IMG/VR virus record: IMGVR_UViG_3300008954_000001
DNA length: 64,000 bases
Origin: a virus
Taxonomy: Duplodnaviria; Caudoviricetes
Reading direction: 5' to 3' (one strand)
Position 1 is the first letter of the stretch. Every line of letters starts with the position of its first letter. This document shows positions 56,625 through 62,820 of the stretch, one piece after another. Below the pieces are notes generated by a model that made no database searches, was not told the DNA's origin, and saw only the letters and a list, made by a program, of their open reading frames with translations. The translations under genes were made by a program, and so were the position numbers.

Positions 56625-56927
56625 ATGGCTCGCAGAGCATCTACCCACGCTGTACTACAACGGCACATGAAGCGACGGGCGGACAATAGTCCCGGCCAGC
56701 ATAGTTGGGGTCCGTTCGCTGAAGGCGACCGTGAAGCGGATAAAGACGGGAACTACATGAGCGTCCAAAACATGAAGGACATTCATGCGATTTCTGGTCA
56801 ACTTGTAGGGCGTATCCAACCCGGCACAGAGATGGAAGATTGGGTTGAGGATAAGATCAGCGCAGCCCGACAGATCATGTCCGACCTCGAACGCTTTTAC
56901 AACAAAGGCCGTGCGAGCAAGTCTTGA
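56625..56927 (+). CDS. Small phage protein, putative virion-associated
   Basis: AGGAG RBS; MS..N...I......L......EMEDWVEDKIS.A...MS.L..FY pattern recalled from uncultured-phage proteins. Confidence 0.6.
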   Translation: MARRASTHAVLQRHMKRRADNSPGQHSWGPFAEGDREADKDGNYMSVQNMKDIHAISGQLVGRIQPGTEMEDWVEDKISAARQIMSDLERFYNKGRASKS

Positions 56928-57223
56928 CCTACAAACCTCTCCCCCCATGCCTCACTATTAGGCCATCGGGAATTGAGGGCCTTGGACTATTTGCCGTAGA
57001 AGATATCCCCGTAGGGACAAACCTCGGCATCTCCCATATCGCTGATCCCCGTTACGAGGACGGACATATCCGAACACCGCTTGGTGGGTTCTATAACCAT
57101 TCTGAAAACCCGAACTGTGCAACCTTGAAGCAAGACAATGAGACTGTCAGCCTCGTTACATTAAGGGACATCAAAGCTGGAGAGGAACTTACTTCTCGCT
57201 ATTGGTTGTACGAGATAGGTTAG
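56924..57223 (+). CDS. SET-domain protein-lysine methyltransferase
   Basis: IEGLGLFA, FYNHSENPNC, RDIKAGEELTSRY; TTG start overlaps the upstream TGA. Confidence 0.88.
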   Translation: MTYKPLPPCLTIRPSGIEGLGLFAVEDIPVGTNLGISHIADPRYEDGHIRTPLGGFYNHSENPNCATLKQDNETVSLVTLRDIKAGEELTSRYWLYEIG

Positions 57224-57984: not shown

Positions 57985-58020
57985 GAACGGCCCCCATAAG
58001 AAAGCAGTCCTGATTAAGAG

Positions 58021-58221
58021 TTATTCAGTTTCGGTTGGAGAGGGGCACCACAGTTCCAAAGCATCTTTCAAACGAATCTGACGATACTTTTTCTCCCCTT
58101 CTTCTGATCCGAAGCTCAGGTGCATGAACGATTGTACCCAATCATTGATGGCACGAAGCTCCCGAATGTTACCCGAAAACACAAGTTGGCCGTTTTTATT
58201 AGTTCCTCGAACAAGCGACAT
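58021..58221 (-). CDS. Small hypothetical protein
   Basis: AGGAGG RBS. Confidence 0.6.
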   Translation of the reverse strand: MSLVRGTNKNGQLVFSGNIRELRAINDWVQSFMHLSFGSEEGEKKYRQIRLKDALELWCPSPTETE

Positions 58222-58288
58222 CTTCTTTCCTCCTGTTGTTACAGCATATTACTGCCATTTCCATTAGAAGGGACATAGAAGATGCTGT

Positions 58289-58621
58289 CTAATTTTTAGA
58301 CTCGCTTTTTAGGATCTTACGAGCCTCACCCGCTTCTGGGAGGCGATCTTTGACGTAGGCTTCGAGATCGAAATCGGTAATCGAAGATTTGAACTCGTTG
58401 AAGGCCCTTTTCCAATCGGGGTCAAATTCAAGCTCAGTCTTACCTTCGTGTCCGTGAATGGCTCGAACTTCACCAATCGAATCATAGATCGTGGTTGAGG
58501 GATGTTCAGATAACCATGTGACAGCGACCTTGCCGTTATCAAACACGAAACCTTGAGCCACACGTCCCGTGCCGCTAACGCCGCTTTCGTCTTCTTTCCG
58601 TACTAAATAGAACATTCTCAC
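58289..58621 (-). CDS. Conserved phage hypothetical protein
   Basis: F.L.R.ED.SGVSGTG.VA.G..F..G.V...W...HGH.GKT pattern. Confidence 0.75.
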   Translation of the reverse strand: MRMFYLVRKEDESGVSGTGRVAQGFVFDNGKVAVTWLSEHPSTTIYDSIGEVRAIHGHEGKTELEFDPDWKRAFNEFKSSITDFDLEAYVKDRLPEAGEARKILKSESKN

Positions 58622-58720
58622 TGGTTCCCCCAGCCCGTTAGCCGCACCTACACAGCAACCGCTGGTTGTCTTGAGTTACAGTAGGCGTACTACCTTCACG
58701 ATAGATAAACAGGATATCGC

Positions 58721-59412
58721 TTACGTTGCAGGTTTGCACCCTACGACCACAGGTTCCCATGCTGGCTTTAGAGCAGTCCCCACACCACGATAAGGTAACG
58801 CTGTTTCACAAAGTTCCGTATCTTGCTCATCCGCTTCGATTTCTGAACTGAACATGCGGCCCTTCCGATAGTCTACTTGGCCCGTAGGGGCGTAAGATTC
58901 CCCCATACGAGCCATGCGAAGGTTCTTGGGGGCCGTACCCCCTGTCAACACCAGTGCGTTGATTGCACGGGCCACGTTGTGCGATTTTGGAAAGCCGCTT
59001 CCATAGAGCCACCCTTCAAGGCGGATATCCGTGAAGCCCGCTTCGGACATGGCGGCAGCCAGACGATGATACGTTCGAGTACCAGAGAACGCCTTGATGA
59101 TCCCAGATGGGCGTAGGACTCGGTAAGACTCCTGCAACCAAAGAAGGTGCCACTCTTGCTGTCGCTGAAGAACATCTTCGGACTTCCCGTAAGAAGCGGT
59201 GCCTCCGTATCGAACTTTAGATCGACCGTATGGGTTATCTATGTCGGAGAACTTTCCGTCCCCCGGTTGGTCAGGGACGCATTTGTCCCAATCTTTCCCC
59301 ATAAACTCCAAACCTAACCGTAGGGAGGATCACAAATGATGCTCCCTACGCTTCCCTCCTTCATTTCGGACATTCGAGCGATACAATCGCCGTGTAAAAG
59401 ACGAAGGATCAT
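58721..59412 (-). CDS. DNA MTase catalytic half C, interrupted after DPPYG (proposed +5 nt ribosomal hop)
   Basis: ATG 59412 overlaps the upstream TGA; 32 aa to DPPYG then TAG (59316-59314); LEFMGKDWD resumes in another frame at 59311; ends ALKPAWEP..GCK. Confidence 0.8.
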
Positions 59413-60266
59413 TTAACCCCTACACAAACTGGTTCCCAACTTGGCTTGAGGGCCGTACCCCACCCGTCCCATGTTTCGGACTCTGGTGTAGCGGGAGCAG
59501 TAACAGGGATTTCTGATGGTCCTTCAGAAGTGAAGGCCACCCCTGGAACGGCTTTGCGGTATCCGACGATCTCACGCTCGGCTTCAGCGAAGAACTCGTC
59601 CAACTCTCCATCCATTTCAGTTTCGCTCTCGCAACCCAACACCCGCTTCATGGTTTCCCACTTCTCAGGTGAGGGAAGGACGTTGAACCAAGGGTCGGGC
59701 TGCTTGCCGTCCTCTGGAACAGACAAGTAGTTGCAAGCCCGAAAGCCACACTCCTTATCGATCTGAGAGCGGGTCTTGCCCGAAGCGTCGAACAACTTAC
59801 GAAGTTCCTCTTTCAAAACCGTGACGGACGAATTCATACGACCGTGCTGCTTATCGATGGCCTTGCCAATGTTCATAGACTTTGGAAACCCAGAACCGTA
59901 AGTCCACGCCTCTACCCGAATGTCCTTCAAGCCAGCGTGTTCCATAGCCTCGGCCATTCGGTGAAACGTCCTTGTCCCTCCAAAGGCTTTGACGACTCCA
60001 CCGGGTTTGAGGACACGGAAAACCTGACCCCAAAACTCTTGGCTAAAGGCGATCCCAGTTCCGTCCCATTCTTTACCCATGAAGCCTTTGGATTTGCTTG
60101 GCCCACTCCGTCCATAGGGAGTTTCCAAGTCCCCCGGTTGAGGGCTTCCATTACGAGAGTTCCCAACAAGGTCGTAAGGAGGGTCACACACGAAGGCGGC
60201 GACCGAGTTGTCTTCCATTTCACTGAGGCGAATAATGCAATCGCCATGCTTCAAGTTTAAGTTCAT
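59409..60266 (-). CDS. DNA MTase catalytic half B (uninterrupted), with HTH-like insert
   Basis: True start ATG 60266 (ATGA overlap); HGDC, CDPPYD, RVLKPGG, YGSGFPKS, ALKPSWEP; no SAM-binding motif I. Confidence 0.85.
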   Translation of the reverse strand: MNLNLKHGDCIIRLSEMEDNSVAAFVCDPPYDLVGNSRNGSPQPGDLETPYGRSGPSKSKGFMGKEWDGTGIAFSQEFWGQVFRVLKPGGVVKAFGGTRTFHRMAEAMEHAGLKDIRVEAWTYGSGFPKSMNIGKAIDKQHGRMNSSVTVLKEELRKLFDASGKTRSQIDKECGFRACNYLSVPEDGKQPDPWFNVLPSPEKWETMKRVLGCESETEMDGELDEFFAEAEREIVGYRKAVPGVAFTSEGPSEIPVTAPATPESETWDGWGTALKPSWEPVCVGVK

Positions 60267-60867
60267 AGCTTTACTCCTACGATTATGGGTTCCCAAGCTG
60301 GCTTCAAGGCTGTCCCCCAACCTTCCCAAGGCTTCGCTTCGGTGGTTGTTACAGACCATTTTCCACCGGGCTTGTTTCGATATTGTCCCGCCTTCGTGCC
60401 TTGCCACTCTTCACGGTCGAACTCATGGCGGATCATTTCGGTAGTGGGATCTTCTTGGCCGCTCATGGCACGGGCATCGGCAATCTGTTTGGGGGACGAC
60501 CCTCCGAACAGGACCGTGGCTTCAATGTTCTTTCCAATGTTATAGGACTTTGGAAAGCCAGAACCGTACATCCATGCCTCTATGCGTATATGTGCATATC
60601 CAGCTTGCTCCATAGCGGCTGCGAGCCTGTGGTAAGTGCGAGTACCGCTAAAGGCTTTGATATTTCCGCCAGAACGAAGAACTCGGTGGGCCTCTTGTAG
60701 CCAGCGCACATGCCAAAGTTGTTGTGAATCTAACTTGTCCCAACCTTTACCCATAAATTCGAGGCCATTCAGCCGTAGGGAGGATCACAAATAATCCCCC
60801 CTACGCAGCCCTCCTTCATCTCGGACATGCGCTGTACGCAATCCCCAAGCCTAATGGTTAGATTCAT
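60263..60867 (-). CDS. DNA MTase catalytic half A, interrupted after DPPYG (proposed +8 nt ribosomal hop)
   Basis: ATG 60867 overlaps the upstream TGA; 32 aa to DPPYG then TGA (60771-60769); LEFMGKGWD resumes in another frame at 60763; ends ALKPAWEP..GVKL. Confidence 0.8.
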
Positions 60868-61073
60868 CCTGAATACCCGTCCTTGGCCCAACCGCCACCT
60901 TTCAATGAAAAGGAGGTCTTGGAAATGAGCTTCTTTAACTTGCCTTTGCCCTTGTCCTTCTTCTTACCTTTGCAAAGGTCTTTAGAACAGGTCTTCAAAG
61001 GGTCTTCAGACATACGCTGCATCACTTCAAAGCAATGCCCGCACCTTTCACACTCGTACTCATAGATCGCCAT
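60864..61073 (-). CDS. FmdB-family Zn-ribbon protein
   Basis: MAIYEYECERCGHCFEVMQRMSEDPLKTC...KLKKLIS...F.LKGGGW..DGY. Confidence 0.88.
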   Translation of the reverse strand: MAIYEYECERCGHCFEVMQRMSEDPLKTCSKDLCKGKKKDKGKGKLKKLISKTSFSLKGGGWAKDGYSG

Positions 61074-62230
61074 TAACTGCCCATACCGAACAGATCGGAC
61101 AATCCAACTGCTTCCTCTTCTTTGGTTTCCGTTGGGGCTTCCGAGTCAATCTTTGCCATACGGCCACGCCATTCAGAGGAATCCCAATACCGAACACGGG
61201 CATCGGCAATCCGAATGTAGTCTTCCTCTTTTTCGATGCCGATAAAGTCATGTCCTGTATGAAGGGCGGCGATCCCAGTTGACCCTGACCCCATAAAAGG
61301 ATCAACCACAGGGCCGTTGCCCTTAGGGACAGTGTTGAGTAGGGCTTCCATGATGGCGTAGGGCTTTACGGTCGGGTGGTCATTACCAAGCCGCTTTCCA
61401 TCCTTACGAAGTTTCGCACAACCCGCTTCTCGTTCCGAACGAGAAGCCTTGGGGACATACCAAAAGCCTTCGGCATCAGTAACGAACAAGATGCTGTCCC
61501 GAATCTCGAACCCACCATCCTCTAAACGGCAAGCACCAACATGACCTGTGGGCATATCGTCGGGAGCGACCAAGAGAATGTGTCCTCCCGGTTTGAGGAC
61601 TCGATCCATCTCTTTCGTTTGATCTTCGGTAGGTGTCCCTTCCGCAATCAAACCGTGAATGGATTGATCCTCCACCTCGGACAAGTCGTAAGCATTTACG
61701 TCCTTCATATAAAGGACACCCCCATCCCCCGTGATGTGGGACGGGTCAATCAAGTCCGTCAAATACGACAGCAATTCGCTTGGGATAGCGTCATTATTTT
61801 CCATGTTATCCACCTCTTTGAAATATCTTGATGCCCCACCAGTATCTTCATACCCTCGAACAGTCGTGTCCCTGACATCATTTGAGTTCCATTCCACCGA
61901 AGATCCTTCAGTAGAATAAATAGGTTCCCCGGTAGGTTGCCGTAAACCCGTCGATGAAATCCCACTTTGTTCGTCTAAGGCTCCCGAACTGGTTTCGGTA
62001 AGGACCACATTTGCGGGCCACCGTCCTTCAGGATGTTGGCCTTGGGCTTCAAGGTCGTCCTTCATTCCGAAGTTGATTGACGAAGCCTCTCGGTTGTTTG
62101 ACCCAATGGACAAGGTATCGGTTGTACCGATACGCACATTGTCGATGTTCAGCCCACCACACCCATGTTTCAAGGTGTTGGCGGCGACCGTCCCTATGAG
62201 GGGCTTTCTGGCTACTGTGATTCCTTTCAA
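61073..62230 (-). CDS. DNA MTase SAM-binding half with an inserted degenerate catalytic-like domain
   Basis: TTG 62230 with GGAGG RBS overlaps the MT-A70 stop; begins ITVARKPLIG; GRWPAN, GGASRYF, PKASRSERE, HPTVKP, motif I VVDPFMGSGSTG; no DPPY. Confidence 0.85.
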   Translation of the reverse strand: MKGITVARKPLIGTVAANTLKHGCGGLNIDNVRIGTTDTLSIGSNNREASSINFGMKDDLEAQGQHPEGRWPANVVLTETSSGALDEQSGISSTGLRQPTGEPIYSTEGSSVEWNSNDVRDTTVRGYEDTGGASRYFKEVDNMENNDAIPSELLSYLTDLIDPSHITGDGGVLYMKDVNAYDLSEVEDQSIHGLIAEGTPTEDQTKEMDRVLKPGGHILLVAPDDMPTGHVGACRLEDGGFEIRDSILFVTDAEGFWYVPKASRSEREAGCAKLRKDGKRLGNDHPTVKPYAIMEALLNTVPKGNGPVVDPFMGSGSTGIAALHTGHDFIGIEKEEDYIRIADARVRYWDSSEWRGRMAKIDSEAPTETKEEEAVGLSDLFGMGS

Positions 62231-62820
62231 GGAGACACCTCCGCAATTTGGTTGCCCCAAGAGTGCCAACCGGGGCGGTCTCTCCGTGCGAACACTTCTA
62301 AGTAAGGGCCATCTGAAACCGTCTCCACCAATTCATAGAACGCATCGGGTTTCCGTGAATGGGCGGTTCGGTCAGCATGGACCACAGTCGGGGGCCTTCT
62401 ATCTGTGGAAGGGACCATTGCTTTCCCTTTGACCCCAAACAAAAGAAGTTCATGCTGACCCCGCATATATTGGCCTAAACCTTTTCGTTGTTTGACCCAC
62501 ACGGCGTTGGTTACATAACGGAACCCAAGTTCTTCCATGAGCCACAAGCCGTCCGTTAGGTAGTTGTTTGTTGCCCATAACCACAGGTGGCAATCGTCGG
62601 CGGGTCGCCAAAGATCCCCTGATTGGATTACCGCTGGCATGTCCTTGGTCTTTACCAAGGGATAGTGTCGATCCGCACCTCGCTTAATGGTTCCCCCTCC
62701 CACTTCGGTCCATGGAGGGTCCATCATAATTGCTCGGTATCCCGCTTGAGGTACTTCCCCAAGCGACATGATGTGCGGGGGCTTTTGAACCCCCATGGCG
62801 AACAGATCAGACAGTTCCAT
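62227..62820 (-). CDS. MT-A70-family adenine methyltransferase
   Basis: MDPPW, HLWLWATN, GLGQYMRGQHELLLFG, HSRKP, YLEVFAR, GW.SWGNQ. Confidence 0.92.
   Translation of the reverse strand: MELSDLFAMGVQKPPHIMSLGEVPQAGYRAIMMDPPWTEVGGGTIKRGADRHYPLVKTKDMPAVIQSGDLWRPADDCHLWLWATNNYLTDGLWLMEELGFRYVTNAVWVKQRKGLGQYMRGQHELLLFGVKGKAMVPSTDRRPPTVVHADRTAHSRKPDAFYELVETVSDGPYLEVFARRDRPGWHSWGNQIAEVSP

What the first reader, a model, noticed from the sequence alone, without database searches (positions are those of the whole stretch)
59300..60870. Candidate programmed ribosomal bypassing (stop-hopping) at the catalytic DPPYG of two paralogous MTases
Seen directly on the minus strand. Paralog C reads GAT CCT CCC TAC GGT TA GGT TTG GAG TTT ATG: take-off GGT 59319-59317, stop TAG 59316-59314, matching landing GGT 59314-59312, a 5-nt slide. 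Paralog A reads GAT CCT CCC TAC GGC TGA AT GGC CTC GAA TTT ATG: take-off GGC 60774-60772, stop TGA 60771-60769, landing GGC 60766-60764, an 8-nt slide. Both genes translate exactly 32 codons from an ATGA-coupled start to the stop. In both, re-pairing peptidyl-tRNA-Gly at the matched codon yields DPPYG-LEFMGK.WD, the normal continuous sequence of this MTase family. The two sites use different Gly codons, stops and gap lengths, yet each take-off/landing pair is internally matched and the net frame change is the same, which is hard to explain as one decay event or as sequencing error. Established knowledge: T4 gene 60 bypassing uses matched GGA Gly codons with a UAG directly 3' of take-off. Inference: this is a very short-gap bypass controlling methyltransferase dosage or activity.
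Basis: partly seen in the sequence, partly recalled or inferred. Interest (0 to 1): 0.95.

Follow-up and report, generated by a model that had tools for sequence, protein, structure and literature searches.

The report
Ribosome-hop gaps in phage methylase genes
Two DNA-methylase genes of a large marine phage are each broken just after their catalytic DPPYG motif by a stop codon and a 5- or 8-base gap; about 85 related phage genes carry the same kind of break, with a conserved RNA hairpin just upstream in about half of them, which suggests that ribosomes hop over the gap, something almost unknown in natural genes.

Summary
Contigs from four samples of one study show no indel at either site, and a related phage (87-92% identical) from another project keeps both breaks.

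It is not decay. In 86 distinct junctions from viral and metagenome contigs, a stop follows the DPPYG Gly codon directly. This holds for 70 of 70 frame-breaking inserts. Inserts of 4-24 nt occur in all three frame classes, even between near-identical proteins. Leaders remain under purifying selection (pN/pS 0.39; out-of-frame control 1.03). The Leu-Glu codons between the landing codon and the first ATG vary only synonymously, although no start codon precedes them.

Both window sites also carry a 30-nt hairpin whose 3' arm is the Asp-Pro-Pro-Tyr codons and ends on the base before the take-off codon. An AAGGAGG box lies 4 nt upstream of it. This module occurs in 43/83 interrupted and 3/65 uninterrupted genes, shows compensatory changes, and recurs with a different sequence in a second clade.

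Exact take-off/landing matching is not general. Dosage control is untested and nothing is experimentally shown. I found no publication of it. Earlier reports of this scan found the same kind of site in other genomes.

The parts
60772..60867 (-). Paralog A leader: 32 codons, MNLTIRLGDCVQRMSEMKEGCVGGIICDPPYG. The ATG overlaps the stop of the Zn-ribbon gene (ATGA).
60809..60816 (-). Shine-Dalgarno-like AAGGAGGG, 4 nt 5' of the hairpin base (site A).
   Evidence: An SD-like 5-mer is present in 36/37 hairpin-bearing interrupted genes, 3/37 interrupted genes without the hairpin and 5/65 uninterrupted genes.
60775..60804 (-). Site A hairpin GUAGGGGGGAUUA-UUUG-UGAUCCUCCCUAC. It has 13 bp; the 3' arm is the Asp-Pro-Pro-Tyr codons (plus the last base of the Cys codon) and ends on the base before the take-off codon.
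   Evidence: (covariation)
60772..60774 (-). Take-off Gly codon GGC (site A).
60767..60771 (-). Bypassed bases TGAAT: the TGA stop 60771-60769 plus AT.
   Evidence: The same TGA-NT layout is seen in 26 junctions of the 8-nt class.
60764..60766 (-). Landing Gly codon GGC (site A).
60263..60763 (-). Paralog A body (LEFMGKGWD ... LKPAWEPIIVGVKL), N-terminal half of a beta-class N6/N4 DNA methyltransferase. Its stop overlaps the ATG of paralog B.
59409..60266 (-). Paralog B, an uninterrupted N-half methyltransferase (DPPYD...). It has no hairpin ending at the Tyr codon.
59317..59412 (-). Paralog C leader: 32 codons, MILRLLHGDCIARMSEMKEGSVGSIICDPPYG. The ATG overlaps the stop of paralog B.
59354..59361 (-). 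Shine-Dalgarno-like AAGGAGGG, 4 nt 5' of the hairpin base (site C).
59320..59349 (-). Site C hairpin GUAGGGAGCAUCA-UUUG-UGAUCCUCCCUAC, ending on the base before the take-off codon.
59317..59319 (-). Take-off Gly codon GGT (site C).
59314..59316 (-). Stop TAG. Its G (59314) is also the first base of the landing codon, so only TA (59316-59315) is skipped.
59312..59314 (-). Landing Gly codon GGT (site C).
58721..59311 (-). Paralog C body (LEFMGKDWD ... LKPAWEPVVVGCKPAT), an N-half methyltransferase.
61073..62269 (-). 398-aa ORF carrying the C-terminal half of a beta-class methyltransferase (ARKPL..GGLNID, HPTVKP, DPFMGSGSTG). It is the presumed partner of the three N-halves.
   Evidence: PF01555 positions 144-219, E 1e-21. 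The same order is found in relatives.
60864..61073 (-). 69-aa Zn_ribbon_8 protein between the C-half and paralog A, conserved in the same position in relatives.

Best explanation
Both interruptions are programmed short-gap translational bypass sites ('stop-hops').

Proposed mechanism:
- The ribosome translates the 32-codon leader to the Gly of DPPYG and meets a stop codon in the A site.
- A fraction of ribosomes do not terminate. They keep peptidyl-tRNA-Gly, release it from the take-off codon (GGC or GGT), slide 8 nt (paralog A) or 5 nt (paralog C), and re-pair it with the next GGC/GGT.
- Decoding resumes at Leu, giving the normal continuous ...CDPPYG-LEFMGK... methyltransferase N-half.

Inferred drive:
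- The slide is probably driven or stabilised by a conserved exit-side module: a Shine-Dalgarno-like AAGGAGG followed 4 nt later by a 30-nt hairpin.
- The hairpin's 3' arm is the DPPY codons. With Gly in the P site that arm is still inside the ribosome, so each base the mRNA moves forward lets one more G-C-rich pair form behind the ribosome.

Shown here: the sequence layout, its conservation, purifying selection on both halves, irrelevance of frame, and covariation in the hairpin.

Inferred: the hop itself, the pulling role of the hairpin and SD-like box, the efficiency, and the biological purpose. The purpose could be low or regulated methylase output, or a tolerated scar that protects the conserved DPPYG-coding DNA from homing endonucleases. 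HNH genes sit directly upstream of some relatives but not in this window.
For: 1. The break is old and inherited.
- 33 of the 115 nearest homologues whose N-terminus could be classified start at or just before MGKxWD.
- Scans of viral and metagenome contigs gave 86 distinct junctions with a stop directly after the DPPYG Gly codon.
- 43 of 44 members of one well-supported clade are interrupted, with a median terminal branch of 0.37 substitutions per site across the tree.

2. Frame does not matter.
- Inserts of 4, 5, 6, 7, 8, 9, 10, 11, 12, 13, 14, 15, 18 and 24 nt occur. Length modulo 3 is 0 in 16 junctions, 1 in 18 and 2 in 52.
- Different lengths are intermixed within clades. L196 (8 nt) and L219 (10 nt) are sisters with branches of 0.005 and 0.07.

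3. Simple frameshifting is impossible in four cases. In four distinct junction records (L183; L094, L153 and L181, which share the same 13-nt gap) the body frame contains a stop inside the gap.

4. All 70 frame-breaking inserts begin with a stop codon. TGA (56) and TAG (25) far outnumber TAA (5).

5. The codon just before Leu/Ile/Tyr-x-Phe-Met is GGN in 63 of 86 junctions. It is AGY in 20, and every AGY case has a GGY take-off codon.

6. The codons between landing codon and first ATG are translated. All six Leu codons and both Glu codons are used at those positions, with no start codon upstream of them.

7. Interrupted leaders are under purifying selection. pN/pS is 0.39, against 0.23 for uninterrupted genes and 1.03 for the out-of-frame control.

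8. There is a hairpin ending exactly at the Tyr codon.
- It is found in 43/83 interrupted and 3/65 uninterrupted genes, and one of those three is the Leu-hop variant L160.
- Under synonymous-codon resampling, 20 of the 22 unique 8-nt-class leaders give z of -2.4 or lower (down to -5.8), against a median of -0.7 for uninterrupted genes.
- 94% of cells are paired, against 42-58% in slid controls. One pair shows AU 14, GC 9, GU 2, CG 1 and UA 1.
- A second clade has a hairpin of different sequence at the same place, with an AU/GC compensatory closing pair.

9. Uninterrupted relatives with the same amino acids lack the perfect stem. L231 gives -9.3 against -17.7 kcal/mol for L002. On contig L230 only the one interrupted copy among several paralogues has the stem.

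10. An SD-like box lies 4-10 nt 5' of the hairpin in 36/37 hairpin-bearing genes. It uses AAG GAG even where those codons are rare (29% and 22%).

11. There is precedent.
- Synthetic stop-hops and T4 gene 60 are reviewed in PMC5009743.
- The phiHau3 terminase has 10-nt gaps with a Gly take-off. A junction peptide was seen by mass spectrometry in E. coli once the A-site codon was a stop, and a 5' stem-loop with a flanking SD was proposed as stimulator (PMC10732093).
- Pairing of exiting mRNA has been proposed as a forward driver (bioRxiv 10.1101/2024.12.09.627546).
Against: - No protein, ribosome-profiling or reporter data exist for any member, so efficiency may be very low.
- In the two window sites the -1 frame is open across the gap. 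It would give DPPYG-LNG-LEF (A) and DPPYG-LG-LEF (C). In-frame insertions at this point are tolerated elsewhere in the family, so a -1 shift is not excluded for these two genes by themselves.
- Landing codons are not always cognate (AGY 20; CGC, GAC and GTG once each). Take-off/landing wobble-class matching is 46 of 63, against about 42 expected.
- About half of the interrupted genes lack the hairpin and SD-like box. These are the 4-5 nt AGY-landing group and the 11-24 nt 'TACCA' group. No conserved structure was found for them, so one mechanism may not cover all.
- The junction set was ascertained with a pattern requiring PPYG and FMGKxWD. The hairpin alignment rows were chosen by their predicted fold, and the sequences are phylogenetically related, so the P-values are not independent-sample values.
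- At least one copy (L107) has a body cut to 26 codons, so some members do decay.
Confidence: 0.65

Rival explanations
1. Programmed -1 (or, in relatives, +1) ribosomal frameshifting at the Gly-stop site, with the gap bases translated. This would give DPPYG-LNG-LEFMGK in A and DPPYG-LG-LEFMGK in C.
For: - Both window inserts put the body in the -1 frame, and that frame is open across the gap.
- A stop in the A site and an upstream SD-like box are classical frameshift stimulators (prfB and dnaX, as described in PMC5009743 and PMC10732093).
- In-frame insertions after DPPYG exist in the family.
Against: - There is no slippery sequence. tRNA-Gly(GCC) shifted -1 would face CGG, only 1 of 3 pairs (read from the sequence).
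- Relatives in the same hairpin-bearing clade have inserts of 5, 6, 7, 8 and 10 nt, that is all three frames.
- Close sisters would have to use opposite shift directions (4 against 5 nt, 8 against 10 nt).
- In four distinct junction records the needed frame is closed inside the gap.
Confidence: 0.08
2. A three-piece split enzyme. The 32-residue leader ending in DPPYG and the body are made as separate polypeptides, the body by re-initiation at the conserved ATG of FMGK or through a split ribosome-binding site formed by the SD-like box and hairpin. They then assemble non-covalently, as the N- and C-halves already must.
For: - The methylase is already split into separately encoded halves.
- A conserved SD-like box and hairpin lie just upstream, recalling the split ribosome-binding sites of T4 genes 25 and 38 (from memory).
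- Gene callers start the body at MGK.
Against: - The Gly-Leu-Glu-Phe codons upstream of that ATG are conserved at the amino-acid level with free synonymous change, and no start codon precedes them.
- The ATG lies 17-20 nt beyond the hairpin, and the Met is equally conserved in uninterrupted genes.
- The NTG triplets in the 8-nt gaps are in the wrong frame (read from the sequence).
Confidence: 0.07
3. Inactive genes. The insert is a scar at a hot spot, from homing-endonuclease cleavage and repair or from hairpin-provoked replication error. The copies are silenced relics or reserve alleles, re-activated only by rare deletion between the short GGY repeats.
For: - HNH endonuclease genes sit directly upstream of the leader in some relatives (L089/L090, L196, L136).
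- Interrupted and intact states are interleaved on the protein tree, with at least 21 changes.
- GGTTA-GGTT and GGC-N5-GGC are short direct repeats.
- One relative (L107) has a truncated body.
- The phage still has the intact paralogue B and an MT-A70 methylase.
Against: - Both halves stay open and under purifying selection across a deep clade.
- The first three bases are a stop in 70 of 70 cases, and GGN/AGY precedes the resume codon. A scar would not predict either.
- Codon choice maintains a hairpin and an SD-like box specifically in interrupted genes.
- No length variants were found in four samples (contigs only).
Confidence: 0.12
4. Sequencing or assembly error, or removal of the bases at the RNA level.
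For: None found. No RNA run holding this DNA was available.
Against: - The same breaks appear in independent assemblies, samples and projects, and in about 85 diverged relatives.
- Gaps of 4-5 nt have no known splicing or editing mechanism (established knowledge).
Confidence: 0.02

Closest known systems
Streptomyces phage phiHau3 large terminase, two 10-nt coding gaps (Smith et al. 2013 proposal; PMC10732093)
   Same: - A natural phage gene with a short gap (10 nt).
- Gly take-off (junction peptide GWG|NDPLL) and a slow-to-decode codon in the A site.
- Bypass was shown by mass spectrometry in E. coli when that codon was made a stop.
- The proposed stimulators are a 5' stem-loop with a flanking Shine-Dalgarno sequence, the same two elements found here.
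   Different: - In phiHau3 the A-site codon is the rare sense codon UUA, read as a host-state sensor; here it is a true stop.
- Only three terminase genes are known, against about 85 junctions here with gaps of 4-24 nt.
- The gene family is different.
- Here the hairpin abuts the take-off codon and is made of the catalytic-motif codons.
Phage T4 gene 60 bypass with the mobA HNH cassette (PMC5009743; bioRxiv 10.1101/2022.08.31.505936; 10.1101/2024.12.09.627546)
   Same: - Peptidyl-tRNA-Gly takes off from a GGN codon with a stop directly 3'.
- It lands on a Gly codon.
- A 5' stem-loop forms on exiting mRNA.
- Homing-endonuclease association is seen in some relatives.
- The break persists in a functional gene.
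   Different: - The T4 gap is 50 nt (20 nt in one clade) and contains an A-site stem-loop; here the gaps are 5 and 8 nt with no room for one.
- The T4 5' stem-loop lies 9 nt from take-off; here the distance is 0 nt.
- T4 needs a specific nascent peptide, which could not be tested here.
- There is no HNH gene next to the window copies.
- Landing-codon identity is looser in this family.
Synthetic 'stop-hops' in E. coli (Weiss, Dunn, Atkins and Gesteland 1987, as reviewed in PMC5009743)
   Same: Matched codons flank a stop. Hops of +5 and +6 nt were described, the scale of site C and of the 6-nt relatives (GGN-stop-GGN).
   Different: These were low-level events in artificial constructs without stimulators. 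The review states that no natural in-frame stop-hop was known.
Mitochondrial 'byp' elements of Magnusiomyces capitatus (cited in PMC5009743 and PMC10732093)
   Same: Many short frame-disrupting inserts in functional genes, rendered harmless by bypassing. The inserts behave as mobile or recurrent elements.
   Different: The byp elements are 27-55 nt (from memory), occur in a mitochondrial translation system, and have no association with one catalytic motif.

Membership tests
Programmed translational bypassing (general definition: peptidyl-tRNA leaves one codon and re-pairs at a non-overlapping codon; the gap is untranslated) | Coding sequence on both sides of the gap is maintained by selection, and the joined product equals the uninterrupted family sequence | tested here: met
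   Leader pN/pS is 0.39 against a control of 1.03. Bodies stay open in a deep clade. The joined sequence DPPYG-LEFMGK equals the intact homologues.
Programmed translational bypassing (general definition) | Gap length is free to vary in any frame among relatives | tested here: met
   Gaps are 4-24 nt. Length modulo 3 is 0, 1 and 2 in 16, 18 and 52 junctions, intermixed within clades.
Programmed translational bypassing (general definition) | A single polypeptide spanning the gap is actually made | not testable with these tools
   No proteomic or RNA data are available. No RNA run was listed.
T4 gene 60-type bypass | Matched Gly take-off and landing codons with a stop directly 3' of take-off | tested here: met
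   GGC-TGA-AT-GGC and GGT-TAG/GGT in the window. Across the family, matching is only partial.
T4 gene 60-type bypass | A roughly 50-nt gap with an A-site/extended stem-loop starting at the stop | tested here: not met
   The gaps are 5 and 8 nt, and no structure is possible within them.
T4 gene 60-type bypass | A 5' stem-loop formed by exiting mRNA | tested here: met
   A 30-nt hairpin with covariation. It abuts the take-off codon, however, instead of lying 9 nt upstream (for T4).
T4 gene 60-type bypass | Nascent-peptide signal acting in the exit tunnel | not testable with these tools
   The leader is the conserved methyltransferase N-terminus, so conservation cannot be separated from enzyme function.
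T4 gene 60-type bypass | Carried by a mobA-like HNH homing-endonuclease cassette | tested here: not met
   No nuclease gene lies next to A or C. The neighbours are the Zn-ribbon gene, paralog B and an Acb5-like gene. HNH genes abut the leader in a second clade (L089/L090, L196, L136).
-1 programmed ribosomal frameshift | Slippery X XXY YYZ heptamer allowing tandem re-pairing | tested here: not met
   C TAC GGC TGA and C TAC GGT TAG are not slippery.
Beta-class N6/N4 DNA methyltransferase (PF01555) | Motif IV DPPY followed by the FMGKxWD..GSGFPKS..LKPxxEP core (N-half) and motif I FxGxG (C-half) | tested here: met
   The N-half motifs are in A, B and C. PF01555 matches them only partially (E 7e-4 to 1e-3, below the gathering score), because only half the domain is present. 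Motif I (DPFMGSGSTG) is on the separate 398-aa ORF, E 1e-21.

The most novel reading that the evidence does not exclude
Phage beta-class DNA methyltransferases carry an ancient, widespread class of programmed short-gap bypass sites with gaps of 4-24 nt. In its commonest form, the hop is powered by a compact exit-side module, an SD-like box followed by a hairpin built from the DPPY codons themselves, which refolds behind the ribosome and pulls the mRNA forward by a few bases. This would be the first large natural family of stop-hops. It would be a minimal, sequence-defined bypass signal of about 50 nt that works in any frame, and it would keep an enzyme functional while its most conserved DNA segment is disrupted, giving homing-endonuclease immunity and/or a translational throttle.
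Probability: 0.5. Interest if true: 0.9.

Novelty: new variant of a known kind. Interest (0 to 1): 0.85.

Why it matters
Natural translational bypassing is known from very few cases: T4 gene 60 and its homologues, one yeast mitochondrion, and the candidate phiHau3 terminase. The 2016 reference review states that no natural stop-hop was known.

If this reading holds, it gives about 85 naturally varied examples with gaps of 4-24 nt in one enzyme family. These form an evolutionary mutagenesis series that shows which features matter:
- a stop in the A site;
- a GGN or xGY landing codon;
- a hairpin abutting the take-off codon;
- an SD-like box.

It would also make the 'exiting-mRNA pairing as forward driver' idea directly testable with a cassette of about 50 nt.

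There is a practical consequence. Gene callers currently annotate about 29% of this methylase family (33 of the 115 nearest homologues that could be classified) as N-terminally truncated proteins that lack the catalytic motif. Phage methylomes and anti-restriction capacity would therefore be under-predicted.

Tried and rejected
- DNA search of GenBank phages with the 3.6-kb region found no match.
- Protein search of the same collection found only distant hits below 40% identity in the 60 records listed; those are annotated as ordinary DNA methylase genes, and I did not inspect their junctions.
- No whole genome is held for this window.
- No RNA holder is listed among public runs. The runs laid were contigs, so minority alleles cannot be seen.
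- Rfam gave no match in 58000-62500. ARAGORN found no tRNA in the window, so there is no phage tRNA-Gly or suppressor here.
- Exact or wobble-class matching of take-off and landing codons as a family rule was rejected: 46 of 63 matched against about 42 expected.
- A search for a conserved fold in the 4-5 nt AGY-landing group and the 11-24 nt 'TACCA' group found nothing convincing.
- A fixed spacing from the SD-like box through the hairpin to the landing codon does not hold: the values range from 9 to 23 nt (own arithmetic).
- Leader dN/dS over all pairs was saturated and uninformative, so it was replaced by close pairs.
- Alternative genetic codes were considered and dismissed. Reading TGA or TAG as sense leaves frame 0 with no methylase sequence and another stop within about 12 codons (read).
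- Literature searches for this feature in methyltransferases returned nothing relevant.
- The id PMC1073209, quoted in an earlier scan note, is truncated. The paper meant is PMC10732093.
- Complex prediction and structure prediction were not used, because the hop product is not an unaltered translation.


Full report
**1. What is in the window**

On the minus strand lies a tightly packed methylation module of a large marine phage. The window also encodes ribonucleotide reductase, GroEL, a clamp loader, a Dda-like helicase and an endolysin. The module runs in this order:
- an MT-A70 methylase (62820-62227);
- a 398-aa ORF carrying only the C-terminal half of a beta-class N6/N4 methyltransferase, including motif I DPFMGSGSTG (62269-61073);
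- a 69-aa Zn-ribbon protein (61073-60864);
- three paralogous N-terminal halves A, B and C, containing motif IV DPPY through LKPAWEP.

The genes are chained by ATGA stop-start overlaps: Zn-ribbon to A, A body to B, and B to C. B is intact.

A and C each run for exactly 32 codons to ...CDPPYG and then meet a stop:
- A reads GGC TGA AT GGC CTC GAA TTT ATG.
- C reads GGT TAG, where the G of TAG starts GGT TTG GAG TTT ATG.

Relative to intact homologues (DPPYGLEFMGK) the inserts are 8 and 5 nt.

**2. The break is real DNA**

Contigs from four samples of one study cover the sites (site C in all four samples, site A in three) without any indel. A co-occurring strain with four SNPs in leader C keeps the break; two of those SNPs are synonymous, and the other two change a single codon (Gly20 to Ala). 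Separate assemblies carry it as well. L170, an 87-92% identical phage from another project, also has both breaks. In its C-like copy the Leu and Glu codons after the landing site have changed synonymously.

**3. The break is a conserved family trait, not decay**

- Of the 120 best homologues of the C body, 115 could be classified by N-terminus. 33 of these start at, or a few residues before, MGKxWD and so lack DPPY.
- The syntenic marine relatives L001-L005 have a single N-half after the Zn-ribbon gene, with GGC TGA CT GGT TTA GAG TTC ATG.
- I scanned IMG/VR and JGI metagenome contigs for PPYG-(8-38 nt)-FMGKxWD, where the uninterrupted spacing is 7 nt. Together with intact controls, this gave 151 distinct junctions.
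- 86 of them have a stop codon directly after the Gly codon.
- Every one of the 70 frame-breaking inserts begins with a stop.
- Insert lengths are 4, 5, 6, 7, 8, 9, 10, 11, 12, 13, 14, 15, 18 and 24 nt.
- Bodies are either N-halves (about 150-260 aa) or full-length enzymes (up to 618 aa).

**4. Which mechanism the series points to**

*A fixed +/-1 frameshift is excluded as the general solution.*
- All three frame relations occur (16 junctions with length mod 3 = 0, 18 with 1, 52 with 2).
- They are intermixed inside one well-supported clade of 43 interrupted genes.
- Near-identical sisters differ in gap length: L196 has 8 nt and L219 has 10 nt, and L126 has 5 nt while L139 has 4 nt.
- In four distinct junction records (L183; L094, L153 and L181, which share the same 13-nt gap) the body frame is closed by a stop inside the gap.

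*A split gene with re-initiation at the ATG of FMGK does not fit.* The three codons before that ATG are kept as Gly-Leu-Glu. All six Leu codons and both Glu codons are used there, and no start codon precedes them.

*Pseudogenisation does not fit.* Leaders of interrupted genes show pN/pS of 0.39 among close pairs, against 0.23 for intact genes and 1.03 for an out-of-frame control. Both halves stay open over long branches.

*What remains is that the gap is skipped during translation.*
- The codon before the resume codon is GGN in 63 of 86 junctions.
- It is AGY in 20 junctions, and every AGY case has a GGY take-off.
- One relative, L160, has the same device one codon later on Leu (CTT TGA CTG).
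- Exact matching, as in the window, is common but not obligatory. GGA>GGC and GGT>GGA both occur, and wobble-class matching is not above expectation.
- TAA is rare among the stops (5 of 86).

**5. A conserved RNA module at the take-off site**

Folding the window sites shows a 30-nt hairpin in A, C and L002. Its 3' arm is the Asp-Pro-Pro-Tyr codons (preceded by the last base of the Cys codon), and it ends on the base before the take-off codon:
- A: GUAGGGGGGAUUA-UUUG-UGAUCCUCCCUAC, 60804-60775.
- C: 59349-59320.

Evidence that this hairpin is selected:
- A stem of at least 5 bp ending at the Tyr codon is predicted in 43/83 interrupted and 3/65 uninterrupted genes. One of those three is the Leu-hop variant L160.
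- With the amino-acid sequence held fixed and synonymous codons resampled, 20 of the 22 unique leaders of the 8-nt class give z of -2.4 or lower (down to -5.8). Uninterrupted genes have a median of -0.7.
- On 27 sequences, 94% of cells are paired, against 42-58% when partners are slid by 1-3 columns. The pair linking the third base of the first Pro codon to the codon after Gly shows AU 14, GC 9, GU 2, CG 1, UA 1 and no mismatch. Another pair shows AU 12, GC 10, GU 5. These rows were chosen for having the fold, which inflates the percentage paired but not the compensatory pattern.
- A second clade (leader ...DLLCTDPPYG) has a hairpin of different sequence at the same position. Its closing pair switches AU/GC together with TAT/TAC. 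It uses CCG for Pro, although CCG is 5% of Pro codons in those genes.
- Intact relatives with the same amino acids lack the perfect stem. L231 is syntenic with L002 and uses CCG CCT TAT (-9.3 against -17.7 kcal/mol). On contig L230, only the interrupted copy among several paralogues has the stem.

A Shine-Dalgarno-like box (AAGGAGG, GGAGGA, GAGGAG or AAGGAG) lies 4-10 nt 5' of the hairpin base.
- It is present in 36/37 hairpin-bearing genes, 3/37 interrupted genes without the hairpin, and 5/65 intact genes.
- In the AT-rich clade it is always AAG GAG, although those codons make up 29% and 22% of Lys and Glu codons.
- In the window it is AAGGAGGG at 60816-60809 and 59361-59354.
- Between A and C, the last 51 nt of the leader are 86% identical, against 56% for the first 45 nt and 59% for the bodies.

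**6. How it most likely works (inference)**

With Gly in the P site and a stop in the A site, the 13-nt 3' arm is still inside the mRNA channel, while the 5' arm and loop have emerged. Each base of forward slippage lets one more pair of the G-C-rich lower stem form. A displacement of 5-8 nt is about what the stem can pay for. The SD-like box may hold the mRNA on the platform while this happens.

Two published proposals describe the same logic:
- the 5' and extended stem-loops of T4 gene 60;
[quoted passage not shown] There, a Gly take-off junction peptide was found by mass spectrometry in E. coli once the A-site codon was a stop.

About half of the interrupted genes lack this module. These are the 4-5 nt gaps with AGY landing, and the 11-24 nt gaps sharing a TACCA motif. 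I found no conserved fold for them, so they may use other signals or hop inefficiently.

**7. Origin and purpose (open)**

On the tree of the 120 unbiased homologues, interrupted and intact states are interleaved. At least 21 changes are needed, 10 of them forced by strongly supported branches, although mosaicism may inflate this count.

In the second clade, an HNH endonuclease gene abuts the leader or runs in frame into it (L089/L090, L196, L136). This resembles the mobA cassette of gene 60. Earlier reports of this scan on other genomes reached the same conclusion.

No nuclease gene lies next to A or C. In this phage the gaps are therefore either orphaned immunity scars that the hop renders harmless, or throttles on methylase output. 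Translation of B and C is coupled by ATGA overlaps to what precedes them, so the hop at A could gate the whole array. None of this was tested.

**8. Comparison and novelty**

The device works like T4 gene 60, phiHau3 and the synthetic stop-hops. It is not a member of the gene 60 cassette family: it has no 50-nt gap, no A-site stem-loop and no adjacent mobA.

I found no paper describing it. The 2016 review states that natural stop-hops were unknown.

Within this scan the same kind of site has been reported before on other DNA. This window adds four things:
- two paralogous sites in one phage without a nuclease;
- the full gap-length series in all frames;
- selection statistics on both halves of the gene;
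- the SD-like box and hairpin module with covariation.

**9. Verdict**

- Programmed short-gap bypass is the best explanation (0.65).
- It is a new variant of a known kind, and of high interest to the recoding field.
- It is entirely computational until a junction peptide is seen.

Noticed in passing
window 58721-62269 (-); also L001-L005, L227-L231: The beta-class methyltransferase is encoded in pieces and out of order. One ORF carries the C-terminal half (ARKPL...GGLNID...HPTVKP...DPFMGSGSTG, plus a degenerate DPPY-less copy of the N-half core). Three separate N-halves follow in the window, and up to five in relatives such as L230. One SAM-binding half may therefore serve several catalytic/recognition halves.
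   Followed up: partly
window 60864-61073 (-); L001-L005 2688-2891; L231 1301-1504: A 67-69 aa Zn_ribbon_8 (FmdB-like) protein sits between the C-half and the first N-half and is translationally coupled (ATGA) to the interrupted leader. This position is conserved in relatives. Its role is unknown.
   Followed up: no
L160 (metagenome contig Ga0209042_1006309), junction TAC GGG CTT TGA CTG GAG TTC ATG: A variant has the stop one codon later, flanked by two Leu codons (CTT TGA CTG). It has the same kind of hairpin ending at the Tyr codon, and would be an in-frame Leu-to-Leu stop-hop candidate.
   Followed up: partly
L096, L102, L112, L124, L145, L147, L148, L151, L171, L185, L220 (gaps of 12-18 nt): The longer gaps share a TACCA(C/T/A) motif just before the landing codon but lack the upstream hairpin and SD-like box. 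Its function is unexplained. It might pair with the GG of the take-off codon.
   Followed up: partly
L089 7822-8532 (-), L090, L094, L196 924-1505, L136 1003-1575 (-): HNH endonuclease genes lie directly upstream of interrupted leaders in one clade. In L089/L090 the nuclease frame runs without a stop into the leader, giving 237 open codons.
   Followed up: partly
L170 (Ga0114932_10075983) against window 60263-60754: The A-like copy of a 90% identical phage carries an extra insert of about 90 aa, rich in Cys (NPTCAECGGRLRGAKKC...), right after FMGKDWD. It is absent from the window's A. This segment is a hot spot of modular variation in the family.
   Followed up: no
window 58289-58621 (-), 56924-57223 (+), 62227-62820 (-): The neighbours of the module are an Acb5-family protein (Pfam PF26761 in the relatives' annotation; phrog_7499), a SET-domain protein and an MT-A70 methylase.
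   Followed up: no
junction set: The base just 5' of the landing codon is T in 39 and A in 22 of the 71 gaps of 6 nt or more. In the 8-nt class the gap is always stop + (A/C/T)T. The reason is unknown.
   Followed up: no
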